Shown piece after piece: positions 5,360 through 42,154 of a stretch of DNA of 64,000 nucleotides (position 1 is its first letter; each line of letters begins with the position of its first letter). Source of the stretch: a virus. The notes beneath the pieces were generated by a model. It made no database searches. It saw only the letters and a list, made by a program, of their open reading frames with translations, and was not told the origin of the DNA. A program made the translations under genes and the position numbers. The stretch covers positions 32,001-96,000 of IMG/VR virus record IMGVR_UViG_3300045988_145033, one strand, 5' to 3'.

Positions 5360-6112
5360 TTAGAAGATTTCGAAACCACCTTTCCAGTAGTTTCTAGTCC
5401 CTATCTTAAGAGTAGGAAACTCTTCCTTTATCGCTTGTGCGATATGAGTAACATCGTCCATTTCGGGCACGGGGAAATCACACCCTTGGACTTTATTATA
5501 CTTTCTAAGCGTCCAGAATACATTATCGAACTTAGATATGACACTTGCGATTTCTCTAAGTTCGTCAAGGCTTGTGTCTCCGAATACTGGAGTTCTTATA
5601 TCAACTAAAACTCCATTTTCTTGACACAATTTAATAATTCTTTCTTGGTCCATAACTGGTTTGGCAACTCCAGTTATTTTAACCAATCTGTCACTATAGA
5701 ATGCCTTGAAATCTATAGCAACATAGTCTAGGTATTTTACTAGACTTTTAACTAGCCCATAACTGCTACCATTATGAGCTATTGATATTTTTTGTCCAAA
5801 TTTGTTCATTACATATTGGGCTATATGTAATGATTCAGAAGGATAAGCCGCGGGGTCTCCCCCGCTTAATCTAATCCTTCTTCCTTTAGAAGCTTCAATA
5901 TCTATCAAAGCTTCTAAGTCACTCATTTTAATGTCGTGAGTGTTGATGACGTTGCCAGCATCATCGTAGAATTGACAGTCCCTTTTACAGTAAGGACAAC
6001 TGTAATTACAATCACCAAAAGAAACGATTGCCATTTCTTCTGGTGTTCTATTGAATGCTTGTAGGAAGTAAGCCTTTCTCACTTCCAAATTTTTTCTTTT
6101 AATTAATTTCAT
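5360..6112 (-). CDS. radical SAM enzyme (activase, QueE or viperin-like size class, 250 aa)
   Basis: CNYSCPYC (CxxxCxxC) cluster motif near the N-terminus and an SGGDP (GGEP-like) motif; no SPASM extension. Confidence 0.8.
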   Translation of the reverse strand: MKLIKRKNLEVRKAYFLQAFNRTPEEMAIVSFGDCNYSCPYCKRDCQFYDDAGNVINTHDIKMSDLEALIDIEASKGRRIRLSGGDPAAYPSESLHIAQYVMNKFGQKISIAHNGSSYGLVKSLVKYLDYVAIDFKAFYSDRLVKITGVAKPVMDQERIIKLCQENGVLVDIRTPVFGDTSLDELREIASVISKFDNVFWTLRKYNKVQGCDFPVPEMDDVTHIAQAIKEEFPTLKIGTRNYWKGGFEIF

Positions 6113-6124
6113 TTTGTTACCTCC

Positions 6125-6215
6125 TCAGGTATATTAAATTTAGACGGTGAGCTCTTAAGCCTTCTTAAGTTTACTCTTGTCCCTACATTTATTATATATA
6201 ATTGAAAAAAAAACG
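6125..6215 (-). promoter_or_regulatory. class A promoter plus a roughly 90-nt conserved leader containing a CTTAAG-loop-CTTAAG hairpin (copy 1 of 3)
   Basis: near-identical to 19078-19170 and 40096-40190; copy 2 carries the compensatory pair cttaaC/Gttaag. Confidence 0.55.
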
Positions 6216-6307: not shown

Positions 6308-6376
6308 TTAAAGCCTAGTAATTGTCCAAATTGCCGCTATGGCGTAAGCCGCCAACATTAATACTAATGCGAACAT
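6308..6376 (-). CDS. unannotated 22-aa hydrophobic peptide (MFALVLMLAAYAIAAIWTITRL)
   Basis: perfect SD AAAGGAGGTGCCAT before the ATG; own class A promoter at 6424-6447 and terminator at 6250-6297. Confidence 0.45.
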   Translation of the reverse strand: MFALVLMLAAYAIAAIWTITRL

Positions 6377-6448
6377 ATGGCACCTCCTTTAAATTATCCC
6401 GGTGGAACTTTCATTCCGTGGGTTCTACATTTATTATATATAATTAAA

Positions 6449-17105: not shown

Positions 17106-17339
17106 CTATACCCTCCACATACTCATCATATACATTAAAGCAACAATAGAAAAACCTATTACAAATGCTATTCCTCTTGCTTTTCTTTTATTACCTTTTT
17201 TGATATGCTTTTTGTATCTTTTTATATTAAGTAGTACAGCATATTGTAGCATCACCATAAATATACCTGTCTTCATAATAGACGTGAATATAGTAGCGAT
17301 AACGTATTTTAAATAAGCATCACTCATTATCTTCATCAT
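17106..17339 (-). CDS. small membrane protein (two hydrophobic segments)
   Basis: 77-aa ORF. Confidence 0.55.
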   Translation of the reverse strand: MMKIMSDAYLKYVIATIFTSIMKTGIFMVMLQYAVLLNIKRYKKHIKKGNKRKARGIAFVIGFSIVALMYMMSMWRV

Positions 17340-18822
17340 AATTAGAACCTCCTTTTTTATGAGTTATATCTATTTCTTTCCAGTCTTTGAATTCTTCATC
17401 AAAGAACTTATAAAGCTTTCTATAATATCTTTTAGTTTCAGAAAAACTCTTATCCACAGCTTTAATGTATATTCCAGTTTCTCCACCAACCCGTCCGTTT
17501 CTTCCTGTAGCTTGTTTAAATATCGAGCCCCCTGCATAAGTTTCCATATCTATTGTAAGTTTAATCTTAGATATATCAAGTCCTCTACCAATACTGTCAG
17601 TAATTGATATTATAAAAGGTTTTGTAAGAGCATTCGCTCTTTCTCCTTTTGGGAGTTCTGAATGAAACTCAGATACATGCTTTGCTGGGATATTAAACTT
17701 ATCCATTACCCATTCCTTTATAAGCTTACAATTTTCTATCTTACCTGTCATTATAACTATCTTATATCCCTTGTCCATTTCATATATAGGTATAGCGTGA
17801 GTTTTTATTATCTTCTCTAGTATATTAAAATACCCTTCCGATGCTATAGCTACAGCCATATGCTTATCAGGAACAAACTGTCCTTTGAAATTATAACAAG
17901 ATTGTCTTACTTTTTGTAAAGGTTTTGACTCCCAACCATAAACGTAAGCTATTCTATTTGGCTTTTCTGTATAAAACTCTTTACCATATTTTGGTATAGT
18001 TTTAATCATCTTTTGAAAAGCACTATCATCAAACTGTCCATTTTTAAATGTAGTTGCTGATAAATATAAGTTATATCTCACAGAAGTTGTAAAGTCTAGC
18101 TTTAGCATACTGTCTACTTCTGTATCAAACTCATCAAATATCTTAAGTCCTATTTTATTTTTAATACACCATTCAGCAACGAATGGAGAACCTTTTTGCT
18201 CTATTATAGAACGTAGAGTTGCGTGAGTGGTTACAAATACTTTATATCCTAAATCTTCTTCATAGGTAGATAAAAACCATTTAGAACCATTCATAGCACA
18301 CACGTATCTTTGACGAAGCTTTGTATGATTAGCAAATGAACCTTTCTCTCCTGCCCATTGATTTAAAAGAGTATTTGTCTTAACTAGAACCAGTATATTA
18401 CAACCAAGTTCTGATGCTATAGCAGTTGCTGTAAATGTCTTACCTCTTCCTGTAGGCATATCTATTATAACTTGAGTTTCCCCACGTCTAAATTCCTTTA
18501 AAGCTAGAGTTATAACTTTCATTTGCTCAGGAAACGGCTTTTTATTAACATTAAAGAATTTCTTATTATCACAAGGGAATGCAAGTCCTTTATGAATACT
18601 TCCATATACATTCAATTTATTCATAAGAAATGTATCTCCTATACCTCTTGGAACTCTTAAGTTATCAGGAGATAATAGATAACAAAATGGTTCTTTTTCT
18701 TCTGTGATATAGTTTACTGTCGATAAAGAATCCATTAAATCTTGAGCATAAAACATTTCTCTTTTCTTATTATTTTTATCAAATTCTATTTTATAAAAAG
18801 TGGTAAATTTAGTAATCTTCAT
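17320..18822 (-). CDS. SF2 (DExD/H-type) helicase
   Basis: Walker A MPTGRGKT, motif II DEFD, SAT motif (YLSATT). Confidence 0.75.
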   Translation of the reverse strand: MKITKFTTFYKIEFDKNNKKREMFYAQDLMDSLSTVNYITEEKEPFCYLLSPDNLRVPRGIGDTFLMNKLNVYGSIHKGLAFPCDNKKFFNVNKKPFPEQMKVITLALKEFRRGETQVIIDMPTGRGKTFTATAIASELGCNILVLVKTNTLLNQWAGEKGSFANHTKLRQRYVCAMNGSKWFLSTYEEDLGYKVFVTTHATLRSIIEQKGSPFVAEWCIKNKIGLKIFDEFDTEVDSMLKLDFTTSVRYNLYLSATTFKNGQFDDSAFQKMIKTIPKYGKEFYTEKPNRIAYVYGWESKPLQKVRQSCYNFKGQFVPDKHMAVAIASEGYFNILEKIIKTHAIPIYEMDKGYKIVIMTGKIENCKLIKEWVMDKFNIPAKHVSEFHSELPKGERANALTKPFIISITDSIGRGLDISKIKLTIDMETYAGGSIFKQATGRNGRVGGETGIYIKAVDKSFSETKRYYRKLYKFFDEEFKDWKEIDITHKKGGSNYDEDNE

Positions 18823-18879: not shown

Positions 18880-19068
18880 TTAATCCCCTTTGTGTTTGTT
18901 GAAGTAGTACCATGCGTCTGCCCACATAGTAAGCAGAGCACCACTCCATCTTAGACTAGCTAAGACTTTGATTCCGGCGATTGCTGTCGCCAAAGTTATA
19001 ATACCGAAATATATCACAGTCATTATAGTGGCTGCGATAAGCATAGCAATGATTTGTAGATTTTTCAT
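18880..19068 (-). CDS. small membrane protein (62 aa, two TM segments)
   Basis: hydrophobic; preceded by the conserved class A leader. Confidence 0.6.
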   Translation of the reverse strand: MKNLQIIAMLIAATIMTVIYFGIITLATAIAGIKVLASLRWSGALLTMWADAWYYFNKHKGD

Positions 19069-19077
19069 ATTGTACCT

Positions 19078-19170
19078 CCTTAAGGTATTAAATTAAGACT
19101 GTAAGCTCTTAACCCTTGTTAAGTTTACTCTTGTCTTCTACTATTATTATATATAATTGAAATGAAAAAT
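19078..19170 (-). promoter_or_regulatory. class A promoter plus conserved leader, copy 2 of 3
   Basis: see 6125-6215. Confidence 0.55.
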
Positions 19171-35606: not shown

Positions 35607-38012
35607 ATATTGTAGGGTTTTACTTTCTATAGATATATGAAAATTACCAACTTTTGGAACTTTTACATCATACTCAAATACGAATACATCATCAGAATGT
35701 ACAGTACAAGTAACTTCATCTGACAGGAATATATGCGTTCTTGCCGTTACATCTATCTTCTTATTATCCATTTTAATAGTAGTTATAATATTAGGATTTT
35801 TAGATACTTCATCTATTGTATCTTTATTTATGAATTTACAAGATACTATTTCTTTCTTTAAAAATCTATTAGGTTTTATATAGTCTTCTATATGGTTTTT
35901 ATATTCACCATCTATTTTAACTATATAACCGTCTTCATCTTCTTTTAAAGTAAATAATTCTCCTAATGATTTATAAGGAAATTTACTATCGGGAGTGAAT
36001 GTAACTTCATATAGTGAACCATTTATAACTTGACGAGATACATTATTTCTTATATGAAATGATGATAAATTAGATACAACTCCCGCTTTAATATCAGAAG
36101 CATCTACTTTTGTATTATCAAGTCTTCCTAAAACCTTTCTTACAGCTTCGGCATATTTAAACTCATCTTTTCCTAAGAATAATGTATATGCTGGAGTTTC
36201 TTCTCTTACATATGGTTTATTTGTAGCTATATTATATGTAAACGATGCTATCTCTTTTGCTGTAGGAAGATTAAAGAATGCTGTTCCTATTATATCTACG
36301 TCTTTATCAATAAGTGCTTGTATCCCTTTTTCTACAGGTATTTCCTTTTCTTCATTTAGTTCTATTTTTTCTATTCTACCGTCTAAGCTATCTTTTGATA
36401 CATTAGTGTGCTCAACTATCATAGGATACATAGACAGAGCATCTGCGTCCATGACTTTATTTAAGAATTTATTATTAGGTAAATCATCTAAAAATGGAGT
36501 CATTTCCTTTTTAAATTTATTAGGGTCAGAACATAATCCGCCTGCTATTTGTATTCTATTTGTAAGAACGTCATATGTACTTTCAATAGCATCATCTACT
36601 TCACGTAGTCTTTCTATTATTCTCTCAGCAGATTCATTCTTTGTCATAATAAGCTTATTAACATCATTAGACATTATATATCCCATTCTCTTACATAAGT
36701 GGAAGAATGTATTGGTAACTGAAGTCATAGGAGAGTAAACTCTATCAAACTCAGTTCTTACTATAAATCTTCTAGTTAAAAGTGAAGATATATCATCTGT
36801 CTTTATATCATTAAATGCCATAACTATAACGTCAATCATATTGTACATTACATAAACCCAATAATCTTCATAAGGAAGTTTACCGATAAAGTCAGTTATG
36901 TGAGCATATGATAGTTTACCAAAACCTAACTCATGCTTTGATATAGCGTCTAAGCTCTCTCTTTCTAATTGGTCTTGTGGACGAAGTCCAAAGTAACTTT
37001 GTTGTACATCTACTATCTTAGTAAAAGACTCTGAATTATAATTGTGTCTTCTCTTAGCGGCTTTAGGGTCTTCGTTTCTATAGTTAAAATCAAATCTATT
37101 TCCAACTTTAGGGTGACAGAATAGCTTATGCTGAGGAATTCCTAATTTGTCTGCTCTATATTGTGTATGACGAACGTCGTATACAGCATTAAATATTCCA
37201 AGATACATAGGTTTATAAACTTGTATCATTTGATACCAACTGTCTTCTATCATCTCTTTTTCTGTATTATACCAAGATATAATAATCTTCATTTCTTCTA
37301 CAATCTTTTTAAATCTAGGAGCTAGAAGATTTCTAGTTTTATCGTCCATTTGAGCTTCATCTATTATCTTTAAAAGCATAGATTTAAACTCATCTTTAAA
37401 TTTATCTTCATTTTCTTTTATTTCGTGAAGTCTTTTAAAATCGTCTCTTATTATAGAAAATACATGACAAGTATTTGTACTATCATCATAATAAGTAGAG
37501 CAGGTAATAGGTTGAAGTTCTTCTATATCTGTATTTAAAACATCAGTTTCTATATCGTAATAACCTTTCTTTAAATTCTTAATAGGTGGTAAGTCATTAT
37601 AATCCTTGACTCCATCTTTTTCTTCATAACCTAAACTATCAAGATAATCCATTATTGCTAAATCTTCTATAAATAAGTCTGAGCCAATAGTTCTTCTATC
37701 TAAGAAAATATGGTCATATTTTATCTTCTTTTCTTTAAGTCCTCTTTTAAACTTATCTCCCATATTTAAAATCTTAGCTATATCGAAACCTCTCCATTTA
37801 TAAGATACTTTTTGTATAACTAGATTACCAAGAGATATAGTCTCTCTATAGTAATCTGGAGCATCTCCCTTTACAAAGTAAGCTGGTACTTTAGGGTGCT
37901 TTATTTTCTTTACATATTGCTTACCAGTTTCTGTATCGTACATAAATATATTATAAACATCTTCATCTTTATTATAATATGAGTTATAGAATAAATCTTT
38001 TGCTTTCTCCAT
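35595..38012 (-). CDS. family B DNA polymerase, N-terminal half (3'-5' exonuclease domain plus palm motif A)
   Basis: Exo I YYDIETD, Exo II-like IFNAVYD, Exo III YNMID, motif A DADALSMYPMI (DxxSLYPS); likely start is the ATG at 38012 after GAGGTGATTGAT (the listed ORF begins at a GTG at 38021). Confidence 0.75.
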   Translation of the reverse strand: MEKAKDLFYNSYYNKDEDVYNIFMYDTETGKQYVKKIKHPKVPAYFVKGDAPDYYRETISLGNLVIQKVSYKWRGFDIAKILNMGDKFKRGLKEKKIKYDHIFLDRRTIGSDLFIEDLAIMDYLDSLGYEEKDGVKDYNDLPPIKNLKKGYYDIETDVLNTDIEELQPITCSTYYDDSTNTCHVFSIIRDDFKRLHEIKENEDKFKDEFKSMLLKIIDEAQMDDKTRNLLAPRFKKIVEEMKIIISWYNTEKEMIEDSWYQMIQVYKPMYLGIFNAVYDVRHTQYRADKLGIPQHKLFCHPKVGNRFDFNYRNEDPKAAKRRHNYNSESFTKIVDVQQSYFGLRPQDQLERESLDAISKHELGFGKLSYAHITDFIGKLPYEDYWVYVMYNMIDVIVMAFNDIKTDDISSLLTRRFIVRTEFDRVYSPMTSVTNTFFHLCKRMGYIMSNDVNKLIMTKNESAERIIERLREVDDAIESTYDVLTNRIQIAGGLCSDPNKFKKEMTPFLDDLPNNKFLNKVMDADALSMYPMIVEHTNVSKDSLDGRIEKIELNEEKEIPVEKGIQALIDKDVDIIGTAFFNLPTAKEIASFTYNIATNKPYVREETPAYTLFLGKDEFKYAEAVRKVLGRLDNTKVDASDIKAGVVSNLSSFHIRNNVSRQVINGSLYEVTFTPDSKFPYKSLGELFTLKEDEDGYIVKIDGEYKNHIEDYIKPNRFLKKEIVSCKFINKDTIDEVSKNPNIITTIKMDNKKIDVTARTHIFLSDEVTCTVHSDDVFVFEYDVKVPKVGNFHISIESKTLQYDTP

Positions 38013-38022
38013 ATCAATCACC

Positions 38023-38042
38023 TCAAATCGCTGTTTTTCACA
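38023..38042 (-). promoter_or_regulatory. class B motif (sense TGTGAAAAACAGCGATTTGAGGTG)
   Basis: same motif as upstream of the other polymerase half. Confidence 0.5.
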
Positions 38043-38093
38043 TCTAAAATATTAAAAACACCAAATTATTATAAAAATAAGGAGGTTTTATAA

Positions 38094-39137
38094 ATGCTTA
38101 TAATTCCTAGAAGTATAAGAAATACAAATGACACTTATGGTAGTGGATACTTTGGAACTTTAAAAGTATCCGTTGATAATACTAAGCAAATGTCTGAGAT
38201 AGAAAAGAAGTATGCACCTTATATAGCGAAGATGAATACTCTTGTTAAAGAAATAGATACAGAAATTAAAAAGTCTGAAAGAAGAGCAAAAGAAATACTT
38301 GAAGCTTTTCCTAAGAAAGTTGAGATAGAAACAGAGTCTACAAAAAATAGAGTTTCTTTATACACAACTAAGATGAATGCTTTAAAGACTATTATGGGTG
38401 CTATAAAAGAGATTAAAGAAACTGAAATGAAAGAGCAGAAAATGGTTTATGATATGACAGGGAAGAATGTAGATATTAAGGGTGGTAATGTCAATATGAA
38501 AGCAAACATTGCATCTTTATATGATTCTAATATAACTTCCGCTCCTAGAACTATACACTCTTTGCAAGGATATGGTAAACCAATACCTTCAAGTAATGGA
38601 GAATTTGTTCCTAATCCTACTACAGCACAAAATGTAGATAATAGCGATATGGTAGAAGAAGGAGCAATGGAAGAAAATTACTCAAGAGATGTAAAAACTG
38701 ACGGAGCTTTCACTTCTTTATTTGGGAAAGTAGAAACTCCTGATAGTTCTAAATATATTCAAGGTAATAATACTATGAAAGATTACGAAAAGGTTGATAA
38801 TAGATTCTCGTATGGTGCTGCACAAACTGGACTTAAAGCTAAGTATTTAGAAGATACAGAAGTTAAATGTCATTGGGACGATGACGAGAAGATAGGTTGG
38901 CTTAGAACTTATTCAAAAGACACAGGGAATATAGTATCAGAAGAAGCCTTTATTTCACCAGCATATCACGGAGTTTTAAATAAAATGGTATCAGGAGGAC
39001 TGACTTATGCTATATCTGAAACTGATGATACTTACTCTATCGTACCTGATAAAGTAGACAATGCTCCTATAGCTATAGTAGATGATTTACTTGAAACTTA
39101 TAAAAGACAAGATTTAAGAGATAGACTTAAAAAATAA
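38094..39137 (+). CDS. hypothetical protein
   Basis: 347-aa ORF; SD AAGGAGG. Confidence 0.7.
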   Translation: MLIIPRSIRNTNDTYGSGYFGTLKVSVDNTKQMSEIEKKYAPYIAKMNTLVKEIDTEIKKSERRAKEILEAFPKKVEIETESTKNRVSLYTTKMNALKTIMGAIKEIKETEMKEQKMVYDMTGKNVDIKGGNVNMKANIASLYDSNITSAPRTIHSLQGYGKPIPSSNGEFVPNPTTAQNVDNSDMVEEGAMEENYSRDVKTDGAFTSLFGKVETPDSSKYIQGNNTMKDYEKVDNRFSYGAAQTGLKAKYLEDTEVKCHWDDDEKIGWLRTYSKDTGNIVSEEAFISPAYHGVLNKMVSGGLTYAISETDDTYSIVPDKVDNAPIAIVDDLLETYKRQDLRDRLKK

Positions 39138-39158
39138 ATGGTGGCGTGACGCCACCAT
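39137..39158. terminator. bidirectional hairpin aatggtggcg-tg-acgccaccat between convergent genes
   Basis: perfect stem. Confidence 0.55.
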
Positions 39159-39159
39159 A

Positions 39160-39471
39160 TTATTCTTCGACTAAATCAGCATTTGACTTATCTAAATCAA
39201 ATCCAGCATCTTTTAATACTCTTTTTAAAAACTCGTATCTTTCTAAATCAAACTTATCTAAAAAGCCTTCATCTTCGTTTCTTATTTCCATAGCATCAAG
39301 TACCCCTCTTACAACAGCTTGTCCAGCTATTTGAAATTCTGTATAGGGCAGTTGTTCTAGTGATTCTACAATAGTTGCTACAAGAGTAGTTATCTGCGAT
39401 AGAAGTCTTACATCGAACTTATGATTTATTTTTGTTGCTTGTGATGGCATATTAAAAACGTCCAGTTTCAT
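39160..39471 (-). CDS. hypothetical acidic protein
   Basis: 103-aa ORF; SD AAGGAGAG overlaps the end of the upstream 50-aa ORF. Confidence 0.65.
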   Translation of the reverse strand: MKLDVFNMPSQATKINHKFDVRLLSQITTLVATIVESLEQLPYTEFQIAGQAVVRGVLDAMEIRNEDEGFLDKFDLERYEFLKRVLKDAGFDLDKSNADLVEE

Positions 39472-39473
39472 AG

Positions 39474-39626
39474 TTATTTCACTCTCCTTAAAAAAAATAA
39501 AGGATGTGCAGTCCCTTATCTTTTGGTTTATAGACTTATGATAATAAGAACTACTACCATAAATCCAAGTCCGACAGTTACTACTTGGACTTCACTGTCA
39601 GACAAAATTGATTTTAAGTGTTTCAT
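39474..39626 (-). CDS. unannotated 50-aa membrane peptide (MKHLKSILSDSEVQVVTVGLGFMVVVLII...)
   Basis: ATGA overlap with the upstream 36-aa ORF; SD GGGAGGTAGAAT. Confidence 0.45.
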
Positions 39627-39733
39627 ATTCTACCTCCCATAATCGCGTGTGCGATAGAATACAAAATTATTAGGACAATGATGATAAATACTGAAAACAT
39701 CTTGTCCTCTAAATCTAAATGTGGGGCTTTCAT
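39623..39733 (-). CDS. unannotated 36-aa membrane peptide (MKAPHLDLEDKMFSVFIIIVLIILYSIAHAIMGGRI)
   Basis: ATGA overlaps at both ends; SD GGGGTGG. Confidence 0.45.
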   Translation of the reverse strand: MKAPHLDLEDKMFSVFIIIVLIILYSIAHAIMGGRI

Positions 39734-39948
39734 ATAGTCCACCCCACTACAATTAAACTAGCAAAGAATGCACATACAGAAAACAAACCGAAGTACATTT
39801 GTTTTCTTATTGCATCCTTTCTTTTACGAGCTACTATTTTTCTTCTAATAGCTCTATTCGCTCTGCATTCTTCAGAATGTTGATATGCAGAACGAGCTTT
39901 GTTGTAATTGGCATTTATTTCTTTTTCAAAAGGAACGTCTAGTCTCAC
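39730..39948 (-). CDS. 72-aa basic protein with a C-terminal TM segment (GTG start)
   Basis: its GTG overlaps the TAG of the upstream 47-aa ORF (TAGTG); the listed 84-aa ORF begins at a TTG with no SD. Confidence 0.45.
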   Translation of the reverse strand: MRLDVPFEKEINANYNKARSAYQHSEECRANRAIRRKIVARKRKDAIRKQMYFGLFSVCAFFASLIVVGWTI

Positions 39949-40091
39949 TAGAACCACGCTCCTTTCATTGAAGCTATTGCACAAGCAATTATTGCTATAG
40001 CAAAAGCTCCTAAAGAGATGATAGTACCATAAATGGTATCTAACTCTCTTTCTCTTTCCTTGTTATAAATTTTCTTTTCTTTCTTTTTCAT
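39948..40091 (-). CDS. unannotated 47-aa protein with a basic N-terminus and one TM segment (MKKKEKKIYNKERERELDTIYGTIISLGAFAIAIIACAIASMKGAWF)
   Basis: ATG at 40089-40091 preceded by GGGAGGTAAAACT; first gene after the conserved class A leader. Confidence 0.5.
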   Translation of the reverse strand: MKKKEKKIYNKERERELDTIYGTIISLGAFAIAIIACAIASMKGAWF

Positions 40092-40095
40092 AGTT

Positions 40096-40190
40096 TTACC
40101 TCCCAAGGTATTAAATTTAGACGTCGGAACTCTTAAGCCCTCTTAAGTTTATTCCTTATCTCTACTTTTATTATATATAATTGAAATGAA
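40096..40190 (-). promoter_or_regulatory. class A promoter plus conserved leader, copy 3 of 3
   Basis: see 6125-6215. Confidence 0.55.
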
Positions 40191-40203
40191 AAATGCAGAT
40201 ATT

Positions 40204-40713
40204 TTACAACTTTTTCTCAAGAGTTGCTTTAAATGATTTTGTACGTTCCTTTTCCTTATATCCAAGCTTCTCATATAGACTTCTCGCTTCGGTATTAAAG
40301 TCGTACACATCTAGCGATATAGTATTACAACCCTTTTCTTTAGCATAAACCGATGCTACATTCATAAGACGAGTCGCAACACCTTTTCCTCTTGCTTCAG
40401 GGGTTGTCCATAATGCACGAATATAACAAGTTCTCTTTTCTCTATCAGCTCTTATTTCTATAAATCCTACATAGACTGAACTTATAGAAGTCTTAAGAGA
40501 TGCTAGAAATACTGTACTATAATGAGTCTTAAAATCCTCTTTTATTCTATCAAGAAGGTCTCCCTCATCTTCTAAAGGAAAGGATACTCTATCAGCGTGA
40601 TACTTATATATTGCGTGATGAAATTTTAATAGTGTATCGCTATCTTTTATATTTGCTTCCCTTATTACTATTCTCTCAATCATATCATTTTGTGCTTCAC
40701 CGTATAATATCAT
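40204..40713 (-). CDS. GNAT-family N-acetyltransferase
   Basis: motif A ARGKGVATRLM and a typical C-terminal YEKLGYK. Confidence 0.75.
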   Translation of the reverse strand: MILYGEAQNDMIERIVIREANIKDSDTLLKFHHAIYKYHADRVSFPLEDEGDLLDRIKEDFKTHYSTVFLASLKTSISSVYVGFIEIRADREKRTCYIRALWTTPEARGKGVATRLMNVASVYAKEKGCNTISLDVYDFNTEARSLYEKLGYKEKERTKSFKATLEKKL

Positions 40714-40721
40714 AATATCAC

Positions 40722-41285
40722 CTAAAATATCTTGTCTTTATAAAAAGACATTCTTTCTCTTAATATATCAGCATACTTTGTAGAATATTCTTTTTGCTTA
40801 TCTACAAGCTCTTTTTCTTTTTTGTCCATTTTAAACCAATCATCAGAACGTAAGAAAGTTTCAAGTGCTACAACTCTTACAGATATTTCATTATACTCTT
40901 CTTCCAGTTTTTTAACTTTCTTTTTATACTCTTCATTATCGGCTTTCATTTTAGTTCTATCTTCGCTATCATAAGATAAAGATATTTGCTTCACTTCATT
41001 TATATTAGCTATAAGATTTATCATCTCATCAGCTATTATACCCTTTTGCTCTTCCGTTAGCTTTACATTGTGAACTTCATCTTTTTCACAGTTATTTTCT
41101 ATTACAGATGATATAGCAGATGATAGTTTAGTAGCATTTTCTTCACCTTTTATAAACTTTGCTATTTTAGCATCTTTCTTTAAATCCTTTTTTACATAAT
41201 CACTTACTGCGATTATAAGTCCATTTATCTTTTTCTTTTCAAGTCCTTTATTTATTATAACCTTTAATTCATTTTTATCTGCCAT
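40722..41285 (-). CDS. hypothetical coiled-coil protein
   Basis: 187-aa ORF. Confidence 0.65.
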   Translation of the reverse strand: MADKNELKVIINKGLEKKKINGLIIAVSDYVKKDLKKDAKIAKFIKGEENATKLSSAISSVIENNCEKDEVHNVKLTEEQKGIIADEMINLIANINEVKQISLSYDSEDRTKMKADNEEYKKKVKKLEEEYNEISVRVVALETFLRSDDWFKMDKKEKELVDKQKEYSTKYADILRERMSFYKDKIF

Positions 41286-41305
41286 TTATTGCCTCCTTTA
41301 TATAA

Positions 41306-41446
41306 TTAAAACTCGTCTATCTTTATTGTATTTTGTATAAGTTTATTTTTACCTTTACTTTCCTTTAAAAGAGTAGAACCTTTTATAAATTTCTTATTTT
41401 CTTTACTCTGTTCTAATAAGCCTAACTTCTTTTTATATTTGCTCAT
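41306..41446 (-). CDS. unannotated 46-aa basic protein (MSKYKKKLGLLEQSKENKKFIKGSTLLKESKGKNKLIQNTIKIDEF)
   Basis: SD AAAAAGGAGACAGT before the ATG. Confidence 0.4.
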   Translation of the reverse strand: MSKYKKKLGLLEQSKENKKFIKGSTLLKESKGKNKLIQNTIKIDEF

Positions 41447-41470
41447 ACTGTCTCCTTTTTCATATTAAAA

Positions 41471-41489
41471 GGCAGGGTTTCCCCTGCCA
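41471..41489. terminator. hairpin ggcaggg-tttcc-cctgcc
   Basis: GC-rich palindrome directly after the stop of 41495-42154. Confidence 0.5.
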
Positions 41490-41494
41490 TATAT

Positions 41495-42154
41495 TTATTC
41501 TTCCCATGGATATTCGTCGCCGTCACTACTTTCGTAATCTTCTTGAATTTCCACTTTCTTATTACCATAGTTTGCACTATTCTTTTTAGCTAGTTTTTCT
41601 TGGTGAAAACTCATAACTGTAGAAGTACCATTAAGTATCGCTTCTAACATATTTACAAATGTATTAGTTTCAGATGGTCCACCAAGTCTTACCATATCTT
41701 CCATTCCACCATCACTTGCAAATAGTTTTACTCTATTTGTATCCATAAATGGACATATGATTTTAGAATTTTGTATAACTTGTCCGTCTACTACCGAGTA
41801 TATAGCTGTACCAGTTACATACTTATCTTCTACATTCATTCCAAGAATTCCAAATGCTGTTTCTTTTCCTTGCATTACAAACTCAAATGGAACTTTATCT
41901 ACCATTTTCTTTCTAGCTTGTCTTACCATCATAGTTAAATCTTCAAAATCATTATTAGAAATGAAGTGAGATTTCTCAGGTTTTTTAGCAAAAGGACCTT
42001 CTTCAGTTCTTTTGTAAACTGAGAATAACATTCCTCTTTCAAATAATTTAACACTCATTCTTTTACAATTTTCAATTTCCTTTGTAAAAAATACAAATGA
42101 GATAAGGTGTGTTGATACTAAATCTTCCGGATTTTTCTTTTGTTGTTCTGCCAT
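41495..42154 (-). CDS. hypothetical protein
   Basis: 219-aa ORF. Confidence 0.7.
   Translation of the reverse strand: MAEQQKKNPEDLVSTHLISFVFFTKEIENCKRMSVKLFERGMLFSVYKRTEEGPFAKKPEKSHFISNNDFEDLTMMVRQARKKMVDKVPFEFVMQGKETAFGILGMNVEDKYVTGTAIYSVVDGQVIQNSKIICPFMDTNRVKLFASDGGMEDMVRLGGPSETNTFVNMLEAILNGTSTVMSFHQEKLAKKNSANYGNKKVEIQEDYESSDGDEYPWEE

What the first reader, a model, noticed from the sequence alone, without database searches (positions are those of the whole stretch)
39474..40091. Unannotated chain of translationally coupled small membrane-peptide genes
On the minus strand the conserved class A leader (40096-40190) is followed by four short ORFs that encode hydrophobic single-TM peptides. 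They are 47 aa (40091-39948), 72 aa with a GTG start overlapping the preceding TAG (39948-39730), 36 aa (39733-39623, ATGA overlap) and 50 aa (39626-39474, ATGA overlap). A 103-aa acidic protein (39471-39160) follows, and its SD lies inside the end of the 50-aa ORF. Only the 84-aa TTG-start version of one of these appears in the ORF table. Start-stop overlaps of 1 nt or 4 nt at every junction and an SD inside each upstream ORF fit a tightly coupled operon. Candidate roles are holin or antiholin-like proteins, superinfection exclusion, membrane depolarisation (host takeover), or a type I toxin-like module. Similar small TM peptide genes sit behind other class A elements (18880-19068, 6308-6376, 17106-17339).
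Basis: seen in the sequence. Interest (0 to 1): 0.7.

Follow-up and report, generated by a model that had tools for sequence, protein, structure and literature searches.

The report
Coupled small membrane-protein genes, Fusobacterium phage
A large Fusobacterium nucleatum phage carries a real, conserved mini-operon of four tiny single-helix membrane proteins made one after another from one mRNA; their job is unknown, and such genes are common in phages, so this is a well-documented but fairly ordinary find.

Summary
The four minus-strand ORFs are real genes. ORF1 is 40091-39948 (47 aa), ORF2 39948-39730 (72 aa, GTG start), ORF3 39733-39623 (36 aa) and ORF4 39626-39528. ORF4 is 32 aa, not 50. 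A 56-nt spacer with a hairpin and U-tract, not an overlap, separates it from the 103-aa gene. The window is a ~180-kb Fusobacterium nucleatum phage of the JD-Fnp group, not a Firmicute phage. Across 15 related genomes in four lineages all frames stay open. dN/dS is 0.02-0.8, substitutions pile up at third codon positions, and the 1-nt and 4-nt start/stop overlaps persist in all but the most divergent relatives. ORF2, ORF4 and the 103-aa gene are always present. ORF1 and ORF3 are gained or lost as exact gene-sized cassettes. Each peptide has one C-terminal hydrophobic helix. None of ORF1-5 matches Pfam, PHROGs or NCBIfam, and ORF2 and the 103-aa gene match nothing in PDB sequences. ORF2, ORF4 and the 103-aa gene were also searched in sequence collections, and relatives occur only in this phage clade. 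The unit is driven by a repeated promoter and a covarying 5' hairpin that also precede enzyme genes. It lies beside a Sequestin-domain (anti-Thoeris sponge) gene and a GNAT gene. Function is inferred only: accessory inner-membrane host-interaction peptides, not a lysis cassette. Related GenBank records already annotate several of them as hypothetical proteins.

The parts
40168..40185 (-). Promoter-like motif TTCAATTATATATAATAA (extended -10-like TATAAT)
   Evidence: Exact copies lie at 6189, 19144, 19499 and 40168, plus a 1-mismatch copy at 6431, all on the minus strand; 7 matches against 1.4 expected. JD-Fnp4 has 10 copies, all on one strand. Promoter activity is inferred, not shown.
40126..40155 (-). 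Conserved 5'-leader hairpin (GGAAU-AAA-CUUAAG-AGGG-CUUAAG-A-GUUCC) of the 'class A' leader
   Evidence: RNAalifold on 10 leader copies gives 10 pairs, 4 with compensatory changes and none broken. Further covarying inner stems (CUUAGA/UCUAAG, CUUAAU/AUUAAG, CUUGAA/UUCAAG) occur in other relatives. No Rfam family matches.
40099..40104 (-). Shine-Dalgarno GGGAGG for ORF1
   Evidence: Read directly from the sequence. The motif is conserved in all leader copies.
39948..40091 (-). ORF1, 47 aa: basic N-terminus (ERE.D motif), one C-terminal TM helix, ends KGAWF
   Evidence: ORF; KD 2.7 over residues 24-40. Homologues occur in 8 of the 14 genomes tabulated, and L048 also lacks it. dN/dS is 0.37 against JD-Fnp1, and identity to the L012 homologue is 38%. 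It is absent in JD-Fnp4/6/7, L006 and L007, and an unrelated 80-aa gene replaces it in L010.
39730..39948 (-). ORF2, 72 aa, GTG start overlapping ORF1's TAG by 1 nt: long basic cytoplasmic helix plus C-terminal TM
   Evidence: ATG replaces GTG at the same position in JD-Fnp1, L005, L009, L019 and L020. A gene caller gives an identical 72-aa product (P0001). dN/dS is 0.2-0.37. AF2 predicts a single helix over residues 8-71, pLDDT 82. Present in all 15 genomes.
39623..39733 (-). ORF3, 36 aa, ATGA overlap with ORF2: central TM helix
   Evidence: dN/dS is 0.02-0.03. Present in 12 of the 14 genomes tabulated; absent in JD-Fnp1 and L012, and also in L048. KD 2.9.
39528..39626 (-). ORF4, 32 aa (not 50), ATGA overlap with ORF3: DSEVQ motif plus a TM helix reaching the C-terminus
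   Evidence: ORF. Identity to the L012 homologue is 59%, higher than the neighbouring GNAT gene at 52%. Present in all 15 genomes. dN/dS is 0.4-0.8 on few sites.
39490..39524 (-). A/U-rich hairpin followed by a U-tract between ORF4 and the 103-aa gene (candidate partial terminator or attenuator)
   Evidence: Folding energy is -10 kcal/mol, z = -4.6. G+C-rich hairpins with non-homologous stems plus U11 sit at the same position in L012 and L019/L020, and L048 also has a hairpin and T-run there. The consensus terminator scan did not call it. Terminator function is inferred.
39160..39471 (-). 103-aa acidic (net -8) soluble helical protein with its own SD (39489-39482)
   Evidence: ORF. dN/dS is about 0.1. 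Present in all relatives. No family match. AF2 confidence is low, pLDDT 54.
39138..39158 (.). Strong bidirectional intrinsic terminator ending the unit, shared with the convergent 347-aa gene
   Evidence: Nine pairs, six of them G-C, followed by a T-run. Folding energy is -20.9 kcal/mol, z = -6.8.

Best explanation
**Shown.** This is a discrete phage transcription unit: a repeated phage promoter motif, a ~75-nt structured leader, and four translationally coupled micro-genes (ORF1-4). After a hairpin and U-tract comes a 103-aa acidic protein gene, and then a strong terminator. All the small ORFs are real genes under purifying selection. Each encodes one hydrophobic helix at or near the C-terminus. 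ORF2 and ORF4 are the invariant core. ORF1 and ORF3 are accessory cassettes that come and go exactly at the start/stop junctions.

**Inferred.**
- Ribosomes that terminate at TAG/TGA re-initiate 1-4 nt away, helped by the SD-like G-runs embedded in the last codons of each upstream gene. The peptides would then be made in fixed proportions.
- ORF1, ORF2 and probably ORF4 insert into the host cytoplasmic membrane N-in and tail-anchored, because their basic residues are N-terminal.
- The unit is expressed with the non-structural (pre-late) gene class, because the same promoter and leader drive a radical-SAM gene and a helicase operon.
- The hairpin damps read-through into the 103-aa gene.

**Most likely role (inference).** These are accessory host-interaction factors acting in the inner membrane of the infected cell. 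They could exclude superinfecting phage or blunt membrane-acting host defences. They are not the lysis system.
For: Genes are real:
- Frames are open in 15 genomes of four lineages.
- dN/dS values are ORF1 0.37, ORF2 0.2-0.37, ORF3 0.02-0.03 and ORF4 0.4-0.8.
- Substitutions by codon position 1/2/3 are 134/91/226.
- Independent gene calls exist in GenBank and in metagenomes.

Coupling:
- The TAGTG or TAATG overlap is present at 7 of 8 ORF1/ORF2 junctions.
- The ATGA overlap is present at all 12 ORF2/ORF3 junctions and all 12 ORF3/ORF4 junctions.
- The stretch AAAGGAGCGTGGTTCTA before the ORF2 start is identical in the window and in L019/L020, although identity to L019 ORF1 is only 43%.
- When a cassette is missing, the neighbours are rejoined at the same overlap.

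Membrane peptides:
- Hydropathy and flanking charges support one membrane helix each.
- AF2 predicts ORF2 as a single long helix.

Unit boundaries:
- Promoter motif, covarying leader hairpin, hairpin and U-tract at a conserved position, and terminal terminator.

Timing and context:
- The same promoter and leader precede a radical-SAM gene and an SF2-helicase operon.
- The neighbours are a GNAT gene and a protein with a Sequestin domain, PF21825 (36.4 bits against a cutoff of 24.8). That family is an experimentally shown anti-Thoeris 3'cADPR sponge (bioRxiv 10.1101/2025.07.12.664507).

Accessory nature:
- ORF1 and ORF3 are present or absent by lineage, and ORF1's slot is occupied by an unrelated gene in L010.
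Against: - No expression, localisation or phenotype data exist. The promoter, timing, coupling and topology are all inferred from sequence.
- Guilt by association with one Sequestin-domain gene is weak evidence.
- In the most divergent relative (L048), ORF2 and ORF4 are separated by a hairpin and T-run and do not overlap, so coupling is not essential.
- The window's own hairpin between ORF4 and the 103-aa gene is weak. It pairs with part of its own U-tract and failed the consensus terminator scan.
- ORF3 and ORF4 have near-neutral flanks, so their orientation in the membrane is uncertain.
- No lysis genes could be located in this phage family, so a lysis role cannot be excluded by position alone.
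Confidence: 0.5

Rival explanations
1. Holin, antiholin or pinholin-like lysis-timing module. The peptides accumulate in the inner membrane and trigger or delay permeabilisation for an endolysin encoded elsewhere.
For: They are small single-TM phage peptides. ORF1 carries a face of small residues (G22, S26, A29, A33, A36, A40, G44), as seen in oligomerising helices (read from the sequence). No lysis cassette is annotated anywhere in JD-Fnp4, so the real holin is unknown.
Against: No muralytic gene is adjacent; the neighbours are GNAT, a Sequestin-domain protein, an unknown 347-aa protein and a DNA polymerase. The C-terminal tails are 0-8 residues with at most one charge, so there is no charged cytoplasmic tail. 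No holin family matches in Pfam, PHROGs or NCBIfam. ORF3 and ORF4 (32-36 aa) are shorter than the holins I know of (my own knowledge). The promoter class is shared with DNA and nucleotide-metabolism genes.
Confidence: 0.1
2. Membrane tether or organiser for phage replication or transcription, working like phi29 p16.7 or p1. The long basic helix of ORF2 would bind nucleic acid or acidic lipid at the membrane.
For: ORF2 has a net +9 N-terminal helix directly preceding its TM helix. The locus lies two genes from a DNA polymerase gene, in a region rich in replication genes. ORF2 and ORF4 are core genes in every relative.
Against: There is no similarity to p16.7 or p1 or to any DNA-binding family. 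The orientation differs from p16.7, which has an N-terminal anchor (my own knowledge). The ORF1 and ORF3 cassette turnover fits accessory genes better than core machinery.
Confidence: 0.1
3. Toxic membrane-depolarising peptides (type I toxin-like or host shut-off). One or more peptides collapse the proton-motive force early in infection.
For: Their size and hydrophobicity resemble type I toxins such as Fst, TisB and Hok (my own knowledge). The first gene has a structured 5' leader.
Against: No antisense promoter signal exceeds chance: 17 promoter-like sites found against 17.7 expected. None of ORF1-4 matches any NCBIfam model, which include type I toxin families, nor Pfam. There are four different peptides in a coupled chain, not a stand-alone toxin with an antitoxin RNA. 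The leader is shared with enzyme genes.
Confidence: 0.05
4. The chain acts mainly as regulatory upstream ORFs. Translation up to the ORF4 stop, 3-9 nt before the hairpin, controls formation of the terminator and so controls expression of the 103-aa gene. The peptide products would be secondary.
For: The ORF4 stop codon lies 3 nt before the hairpin in the window and 6-8 nt before it in L012 and L019/L020, close enough for a terminating ribosome to cover the 5' arm (inference).
Against: The amino-acid sequences themselves are under strong purifying selection: ORF3 dN/dS is 0.02, and ORF4 is 59% identical across a divergence where the 103-aa protein keeps only 31%. Four ORFs are far more than such control would need.
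Confidence: 0.05
5. Chance ORFs in A+T-rich DNA, not genes.
For: The window is 32% G+C, and 11% of mechanical 30-80-aa ORFs contain a segment this hydrophobic.
Against: Frames, start positions and overlaps are conserved in 15 genomes. Substitutions are in excess at third codon positions, dN/dS is below 1, and indels are gene-sized or in whole codons.
Confidence: 0.02

Closest known systems
Phage superinfection-exclusion and early small inner-membrane proteins (T4 Imm and Sp, P22 SieA, lactococcal Sie2009)
   Same: They are small phage-encoded membrane proteins made before late genes. They are accessory and variable between related phages (my own knowledge). ORF1-4 share the size class, the predicted membrane location, the accessory turnover and the non-late promoter context.
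   Different: No sequence similarity. ORF1-4 are shorter, tail-anchored and arranged as a coupled chain of up to four. No exclusion phenotype has been tested.
Holins and pinholins (lambda S, phage 21 S21-68, T4 T)
   Same: Small phage membrane proteins that oligomerise through their TM helices.
   Different: No lysis-cassette context, no charged C-terminal tail and no family match. Two of the peptides are only 32-36 aa.
Bacterial small membrane proteins and type I toxins (YohP, AcrZ, MgtS, TisB, Fst), as reviewed in PMC12648545; insertion of YohP studied in PMC7549839
   Same: Peptides of 20-70 aa that are essentially one TM helix. Such proteins usually work by binding larger membrane proteins or by forming pores. 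They are inserted post-translationally, as PMC7549839 shows for YohP (abstracts listed).
   Different: ORF1-4 are phage-encoded, clade-restricted, multi-gene and translationally coupled. No antisense RNA partner is evident.
Phage anti-defence gene clusters (Sequestin, Tad and Acb sponges)
   Same: The unit lies two genes downstream of a Sequestin-domain gene (PF21825) and next to a GNAT gene. Sequestin family members sequester 3'cADPR and cancel Thoeris defence.
   Different: ORF1-4 are membrane peptides, not soluble sponges. The link rests on position only.

Membership tests
Holin (canonical lysis-cassette holin or pinholin) | At least one transmembrane domain | tested here: met
   Each of ORF1-4 has one hydrophobic helix of 17-19 aa, mean KD 2.1-2.9.
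Holin (canonical lysis-cassette holin or pinholin) | Highly charged, usually basic, cytoplasmic C-terminal tail | tested here: not met
   The C-terminal flanks are SMKGAWF, WTI, HAIMGGRI and L, with net charge 0 to +1.
Holin (canonical lysis-cassette holin or pinholin) | Encoded beside an endolysin or spanin and expressed late | tested here: not met
   The neighbours are GNAT, a Sequestin-domain protein, an unknown 347-aa protein and a DNA polymerase. The promoter class is shared with radical-SAM and helicase genes. Timing itself has not been measured.
Holin (canonical lysis-cassette holin or pinholin) | Match to a described holin family | tested here: not met
   No Pfam, PHROGs or NCBIfam hit for ORF1-4 at E-value cut-offs of 1 to 5.
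Type I toxin-antitoxin toxin | Hydrophobic peptide shorter than about 60 aa | tested here: met
   ORF1, ORF3 and ORF4 are 47, 36 and 32 aa, each with one TM helix.
Type I toxin-antitoxin toxin | Cognate antisense or overlapping small RNA antitoxin with its own promoter | tested here: inconclusive
   Promoter-like sites in 38000-42000 are at chance level, 17 against 17.7 expected. Rfam finds nothing. A sequence scan cannot exclude an sRNA.
Type I toxin-antitoxin toxin | Toxicity on expression | not testable with these tools
   This needs induction experiments.
Translationally coupled operon (termination-reinitiation) | Start codon overlapping or within a few nt of the upstream stop, with an SD inside the upstream ORF | tested here: met
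   The junctions are TAGTG, ATGA and ATGA, with G-rich SD-like motifs 6-10 nt upstream. They are conserved in 7/8, 12/12 and 12/12 junctions across relatives.
Translationally coupled operon (termination-reinitiation) | Downstream translation depends on upstream translation | not testable with these tools
   This needs reporter fusions with premature stop codons upstream. L048 shows that ORF2 and ORF4 can also exist uncoupled.
Superinfection-exclusion proteins | Membrane-located phage protein expressed before late genes | tested here: inconclusive
   Membrane location is predicted from hydropathy. Timing is inferred from shared promoter use.
Superinfection-exclusion proteins | Blocks DNA entry or infection by a second phage | not testable with these tools
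   This needs plating or superinfection assays.
Intrinsic (factor-independent) terminator between ORF4 and the 103-aa gene | G+C-rich stem-loop directly followed by a U-tract | tested here: inconclusive
   The window has a 13-bp A/U-rich stem with 2 G-C pairs at -10 kcal/mol, which the scan did not call. L012 and L019/L020 have canonical G+C-rich stems plus U11 at the same position.

The most novel reading that the evidence does not exclude
ORF2 and ORF4, with ORF1 and ORF3 as exchangeable subunits, assemble into a hetero-oligomeric microprotein complex in the host inner membrane. The complex is part of an anti-defence island next to the Sequestin-domain sponge. It would neutralise membrane-acting abortive-infection effectors, or it would act as a viroporin-like device that conditions the membrane early in infection. 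Either would be a new class of phage counter-defence or takeover factor made of tail-anchored microproteins in fixed stoichiometry.
Probability: 0.1. Interest if true: 0.75.

Novelty: new member of a known kind. Interest (0 to 1): 0.33.

Why it matters
Fusobacterium nucleatum phages are being explored against a cancer-associated bacterium, yet 148 of the 177-178 ORFs of JD-Fnp1 and JD-Fnp4 are listed as hypothetical (PMC9670143). This work fixes the gene models of a conserved micro-operon, including a 36-aa and a 32-aa gene that gene callers often miss. It separates the core genes (ORF2, ORF4 and the 103-aa gene) from the exchangeable ones (ORF1, ORF3). It also defines the promoter, the structured leader and the terminators, so the unit can be deleted or expressed cleanly. 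If the peptides do act on the host membrane or on host defences, they would bear on host range and on how well a therapeutic phage performs. As it stands, this is a careful annotation of orphan genes of a familiar type, not a new mechanism.

Tried and rejected
- **Family searches.** Pfam, PHROGs and NCBIfam gave nothing for ORF1-5. PDB sequence profiles for ORF2 and the 103-aa protein gave nothing below E = 0.28.
- **Large protein searches.** ORF2 and the 103-aa protein hit only this phage clade. A full HMMER profile of ORF2 against 1.84 billion representatives gave four hits, all in the clade, and one of them led to the divergent relative L012. tblastn of ORF2 and ORF4 against 50,697 phage genomes hit only the four JD-Fnp phages.
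- **Bacterial genomes.** A scan with concatenated ORF1-4 found no relative.
- **ORF3.** I ran no further search on ORF1.
- **Structure.** ORF2 is predicted as one long helix, so there is nothing to fold-search. The 103-aa protein reached only pLDDT 54, so no fold search was run.
- **Paralogy.** No pair among ORF1-4 scores above shuffles (z at most 1.7), so a tandem-duplication origin is rejected.
- **RNA families.** Rfam found no family anywhere in the window.
- **Leader pattern scan.** The scan of viral contigs gave 26 hits, mostly chance matches in A+T-rich DNA; only six were true leaders.
- **L010 replacement gene.** The 80-aa gene that replaces ORF1 has no family match.
- **Lysis genes.** I looked for them in JD-Fnp4 to test linkage, but none is recognisably annotated.
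Full report
**What is in the sequence**

On the minus strand I find ORF1 at 40091-39948 (47 aa, ATG). ORF2 is at 39948-39730 (72 aa), and its GTG start shares one base with ORF1's TAG. ORF3 is at 39733-39623 (36 aa, ATGA overlap). ORF4 starts at 39626, also with an ATGA overlap.

The frame stops at TAA 39530-39528, so ORF4 is 32 aa, not 50. The 103-aa gene (39471-39160) is therefore not overlapped. A 56-nt spacer separates it from ORF4. That spacer holds an A/U-rich hairpin and a U-run (39524-39490), followed by the gene's own SD at 39489-39482. The unit ends at a strong bidirectional terminator at 39158-39138.

**Where the window comes from**

The region is 84-88% identical to Fusobacterium nucleatum phages JD-Fnp4, -7, -6 and -1, which are myophages of about 180 kb. 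The host is therefore a Gram-negative fusobacterium, not a Firmicute.

Some of the small ORFs are already annotated as hypothetical proteins in GenBank. JD-Fnp4 has ORF2, ORF3 and ORF4 (JDFnp4_94-96). JD-Fnp1 has ORF1 and ORF2. Metagenome gene calls include an identical 72-aa ORF2 with the same start (P0001).

**Are they genes?**

I collected 15 related genomes in four lineages:
- the four GenBank phages;
- IMG/VR and ENA contigs of the same clade (L005-L007, L009-L011);
- three deeper lineages, L019/L020, L012 and L048.

Every ORF that is present is intact in its frame.
- dN/dS is 0.37 for ORF1, 0.2-0.37 for ORF2, 0.02-0.03 for ORF3, 0.4-0.8 for ORF4 and about 0.1 for the 103-aa gene.
- Substitutions fall 134/91/226 on codon positions 1/2/3.
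- Against L012, identity is 38% for ORF1, 41% for ORF2, 59% for ORF4 and 31% for the 103-aa protein. The neighbouring GNAT gene is 52% identical.
- Only 11% of mechanical ORFs of 30-80 aa in this 32% G+C window contain a segment as hydrophobic as these four.

That test comes out the other way: the frames are kept while the DNA diverges.

**Coupling**

The 1-nt overlap (TAGTG or TAATG) is present at 7 of 8 ORF1/ORF2 junctions. The exception, L011, has a 1-nt spacer. ATGA is present at all 12 ORF2/ORF3 junctions and all 12 ORF3/ORF4 junctions.

The last codons of each upstream gene carry a G-rich SD-like run: AAAGGAG, GGGGTGG and GGGAGG. The stretch AAAGGAGCGTGGTTCTA before ORF2 is identical in the window and in L019/L020, although identity to L019 ORF1 is only 43%. 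The Gly/Trp-rich C-terminal tails (KGAWF, VGWTI, MGGRI) therefore look shaped in part by the next gene's ribosome-binding site; this is inference.

Coupling is not obligatory. In L048, ORF2 and ORF4 are separated by a hairpin and a T-run.

**Cassette behaviour**

ORF2, ORF4 and the 103-aa gene are in all 15 genomes. The other two genes vary:
- ORF1 is absent from JD-Fnp4/6/7, L006, L007 and L048. In the first five, the leader's ATG is fused in frame directly to ORF2.
- In L010 an unrelated soluble 80-aa gene sits in ORF1's place.
- ORF3 is absent from JD-Fnp1, L012 and L048. In JD-Fnp1 the ORF2 stop and the ORF4 start are rejoined as ATGA.
- L019/L020 carry all four genes. That arrangement is therefore shared by two of the four lineages and may be ancestral.

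The four peptides are not detectable paralogues of each other.

**The proteins**

Each has one hydrophobic helix.
- ORF1 has 8 K/R residues before the helix.
- ORF2 has 15 K/R residues before the helix (net +9). AF2 predicts ORF2 as one continuous helix over residues 8-71, pLDDT 82.
- ORF4's helix runs to the last residue.

These features fit N-in, tail-anchored insertion; this is inference. ORF3 has near-neutral flanks, so its orientation is open. The 103-aa protein is acidic (net -8), helical and soluble, and its model is of low confidence.

**Homology**

- Pfam, PHROGs and NCBIfam give nothing for ORF1-5. PDB sequence profiles give nothing for ORF2 or the 103-aa protein.
- The large protein collections give only this clade for ORF2 and the 103-aa protein.
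- Of 50,697 phage genomes, ORF2 and ORF4 hit only the four JD-Fnp phages.
- A pattern scan of species-representative bacterial genomes with concatenated ORF1-4 found no relative.

ORF3 and ORF4 are too short for the large protein searches, and ORF1 was not searched there. As far as could be tested, these families are orphans of one phage group.

**Regulatory context**

The motif TTCAATTATATATAATAA has five good copies in the window, all on the minus strand. JD-Fnp4 has ten copies, all on one strand.

Three window copies and six JD-Fnp4 copies continue into the 'class A' leader. The distance from motif to start codon is fixed at 75-80 nt, and the leader contains a hairpin. On ten copies RNAalifold finds 10 pairs, 4 with compensatory changes and none broken. 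More covarying variants appear in other relatives. Rfam has no match.

The leader is not tied to membrane peptides. It also precedes a radical-SAM gene, an SF2-helicase operon (through a 62-aa two-TM gene), a lipoprotein-like gene and soluble proteins. That points to non-structural, pre-late expression. JD-Fnp4 carries several annotated RNA-polymerase subunit genes, so a phage polymerase may read these promoters. Neither point has been tested.

A hairpin plus U-tract sits between ORF4 and the 103-aa gene in all four lineages, with non-homologous stems. The folding energies are -10 kcal/mol in the window, -8.9 in JD-Fnp4, -14.3 in L012 and -11.8 in L019; L048 also has a hairpin and T-run there. 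I read this as a partial terminator that makes the peptide genes a unit of their own.

**Neighbourhood**

Directly upstream is a GNAT acetyltransferase gene (40713-40204). Before that is a 187-aa protein (41285-40722) whose C-terminus matches PF21825 above the curated cutoff. PF21825 is the Sequestin family, shown experimentally to sequester 3'cADPR and cancel Thoeris defence (bioRxiv 10.1101/2025.07.12.664507). No muralytic gene is nearby, and none is recognisably annotated anywhere in JD-Fnp4.

**Interpretation**

The anatomy is well supported: one promoter and leader, up to four coupled micro-genes for membrane helices, an attenuating hairpin, a soluble acidic protein gene and a terminator. 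The function is not known.

My preferred reading is that these are accessory factors acting in the host inner membrane before the late phase, through superinfection exclusion or protection against membrane-acting defences. ORF2 plus ORF4 would be the working core. This reading rests on four things: the predicted membrane location, the shared pre-late promoter class, the turnover of ORF1 and ORF3, and the anti-defence neighbour.

The rivals fare as follows:
- A holin-type role fails three of four defining features tested.
- A type I toxin reading lacks any sign of an antisense partner.
- A purely regulatory uORF role conflicts with the strong selection on the peptide sequences.

**Verdict**

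The coupling and membrane-peptide interpretation is supported. The functional suggestions remain guesses.

Small orphan membrane proteins with overlapping start and stop codons are common in phage genomes, and several of these are already deposited as hypothetical proteins. I rate this as a new member of a known kind, with modest interest (0.33). The covarying leader hairpin may be the more unusual feature of the locus.

Noticed in passing
window 40092-40185, 19066-19161 and 6110-6206 (minus strand); also L012, L019, L020, L025, L029, L046-L048: The 'class A' leader is a promoter motif followed by a 75-80-nt 5' UTR. The UTR contains a two-part hairpin whose inner stem covaries freely (CUUAAG/CUUAAG, CUUAAC/GUUAAG, CUUGAA/UUCAAG, CUUACA/UGUAAG, CUUAGA/UCUAAG, CUUAAU/AUUAAG). 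The flanks UAAACUU and AAGAG are invariant. No Rfam family matches. It precedes functionally unrelated genes. It could be an uncharacterised phage cis-regulatory RNA, acting on stability or as a protein-binding site.
   Followed up: partly
window 40722-41285 (minus strand): A 187-aa protein whose residues 124-180 match PF21825 (Sequestin/crAss001_48; 36.4 bits, cutoff 24.8). That family comprises experimentally shown 3'cADPR sponges that cancel Thoeris defence. Here the domain is fused to an N-terminal region of about 120 aa of unknown function. The gene is absent from L012 and L048.
   Followed up: partly
window 6308-6376 (minus strand): A 22-aa hydrophobic micro-ORF (MFALVLMLAAYAIAAIWTITRL) lies between its own copy of the promoter motif (6431-6448) and a terminator-like hairpin. 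JD-Fnp4 conserves it with substitutions (MFAAVLVLTAYAVAAIWTITKL), so it is probably a real micro-gene.
   Followed up: partly
window 18880-19068 and 17106-17339 (minus strand): A 62-aa two-TM protein lies directly behind a class A leader, upstream of an SF2 helicase gene (17320-18822). A 77-aa two-TM hairpin protein overlaps the helicase gene's end by 20 nt. These are further small membrane proteins embedded in a replication-type operon.
   Followed up: partly
JD-Fnp4 record (L008, L015, L021): JDFnp4_1, _5, _27, _84 and _124: Several genes are annotated as RNA polymerase subunits or RNA-polymerase-like proteins. This phage group may therefore carry its own multisubunit RNA polymerase, as some jumbo phages do. 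All copies of the promoter motif lie on one strand. The annotations were not verified here.
   Followed up: no
L010 1740-1982: In one metagenomic relative, the slot directly behind the leader holds an unrelated soluble 80-aa gene in place of ORF1. It has no Pfam or PHROGs match and is not overlapped with ORF2. This slot appears to be a hot spot for gene replacement.
   Followed up: partly
window 41306-41446 (minus strand), just after the terminator at 41471-41488: A lysine-rich 46-aa ORF (MSKYKKKLGLLEQSKENKK...) with a good SD. It is called as a gene in several metagenome relatives (L009-L011), and a diverged 45-aa ORF in L048 may be its counterpart. Function unknown.
   Followed up: no
whole JD-Fnp4 annotation: No endolysin, holin or spanin is recognisably annotated in this phage family. 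The only candidates by name are cysteine-peptidase-type proteins. The lysis system of these Fusobacterium phages appears to be unidentified.
   Followed up: no
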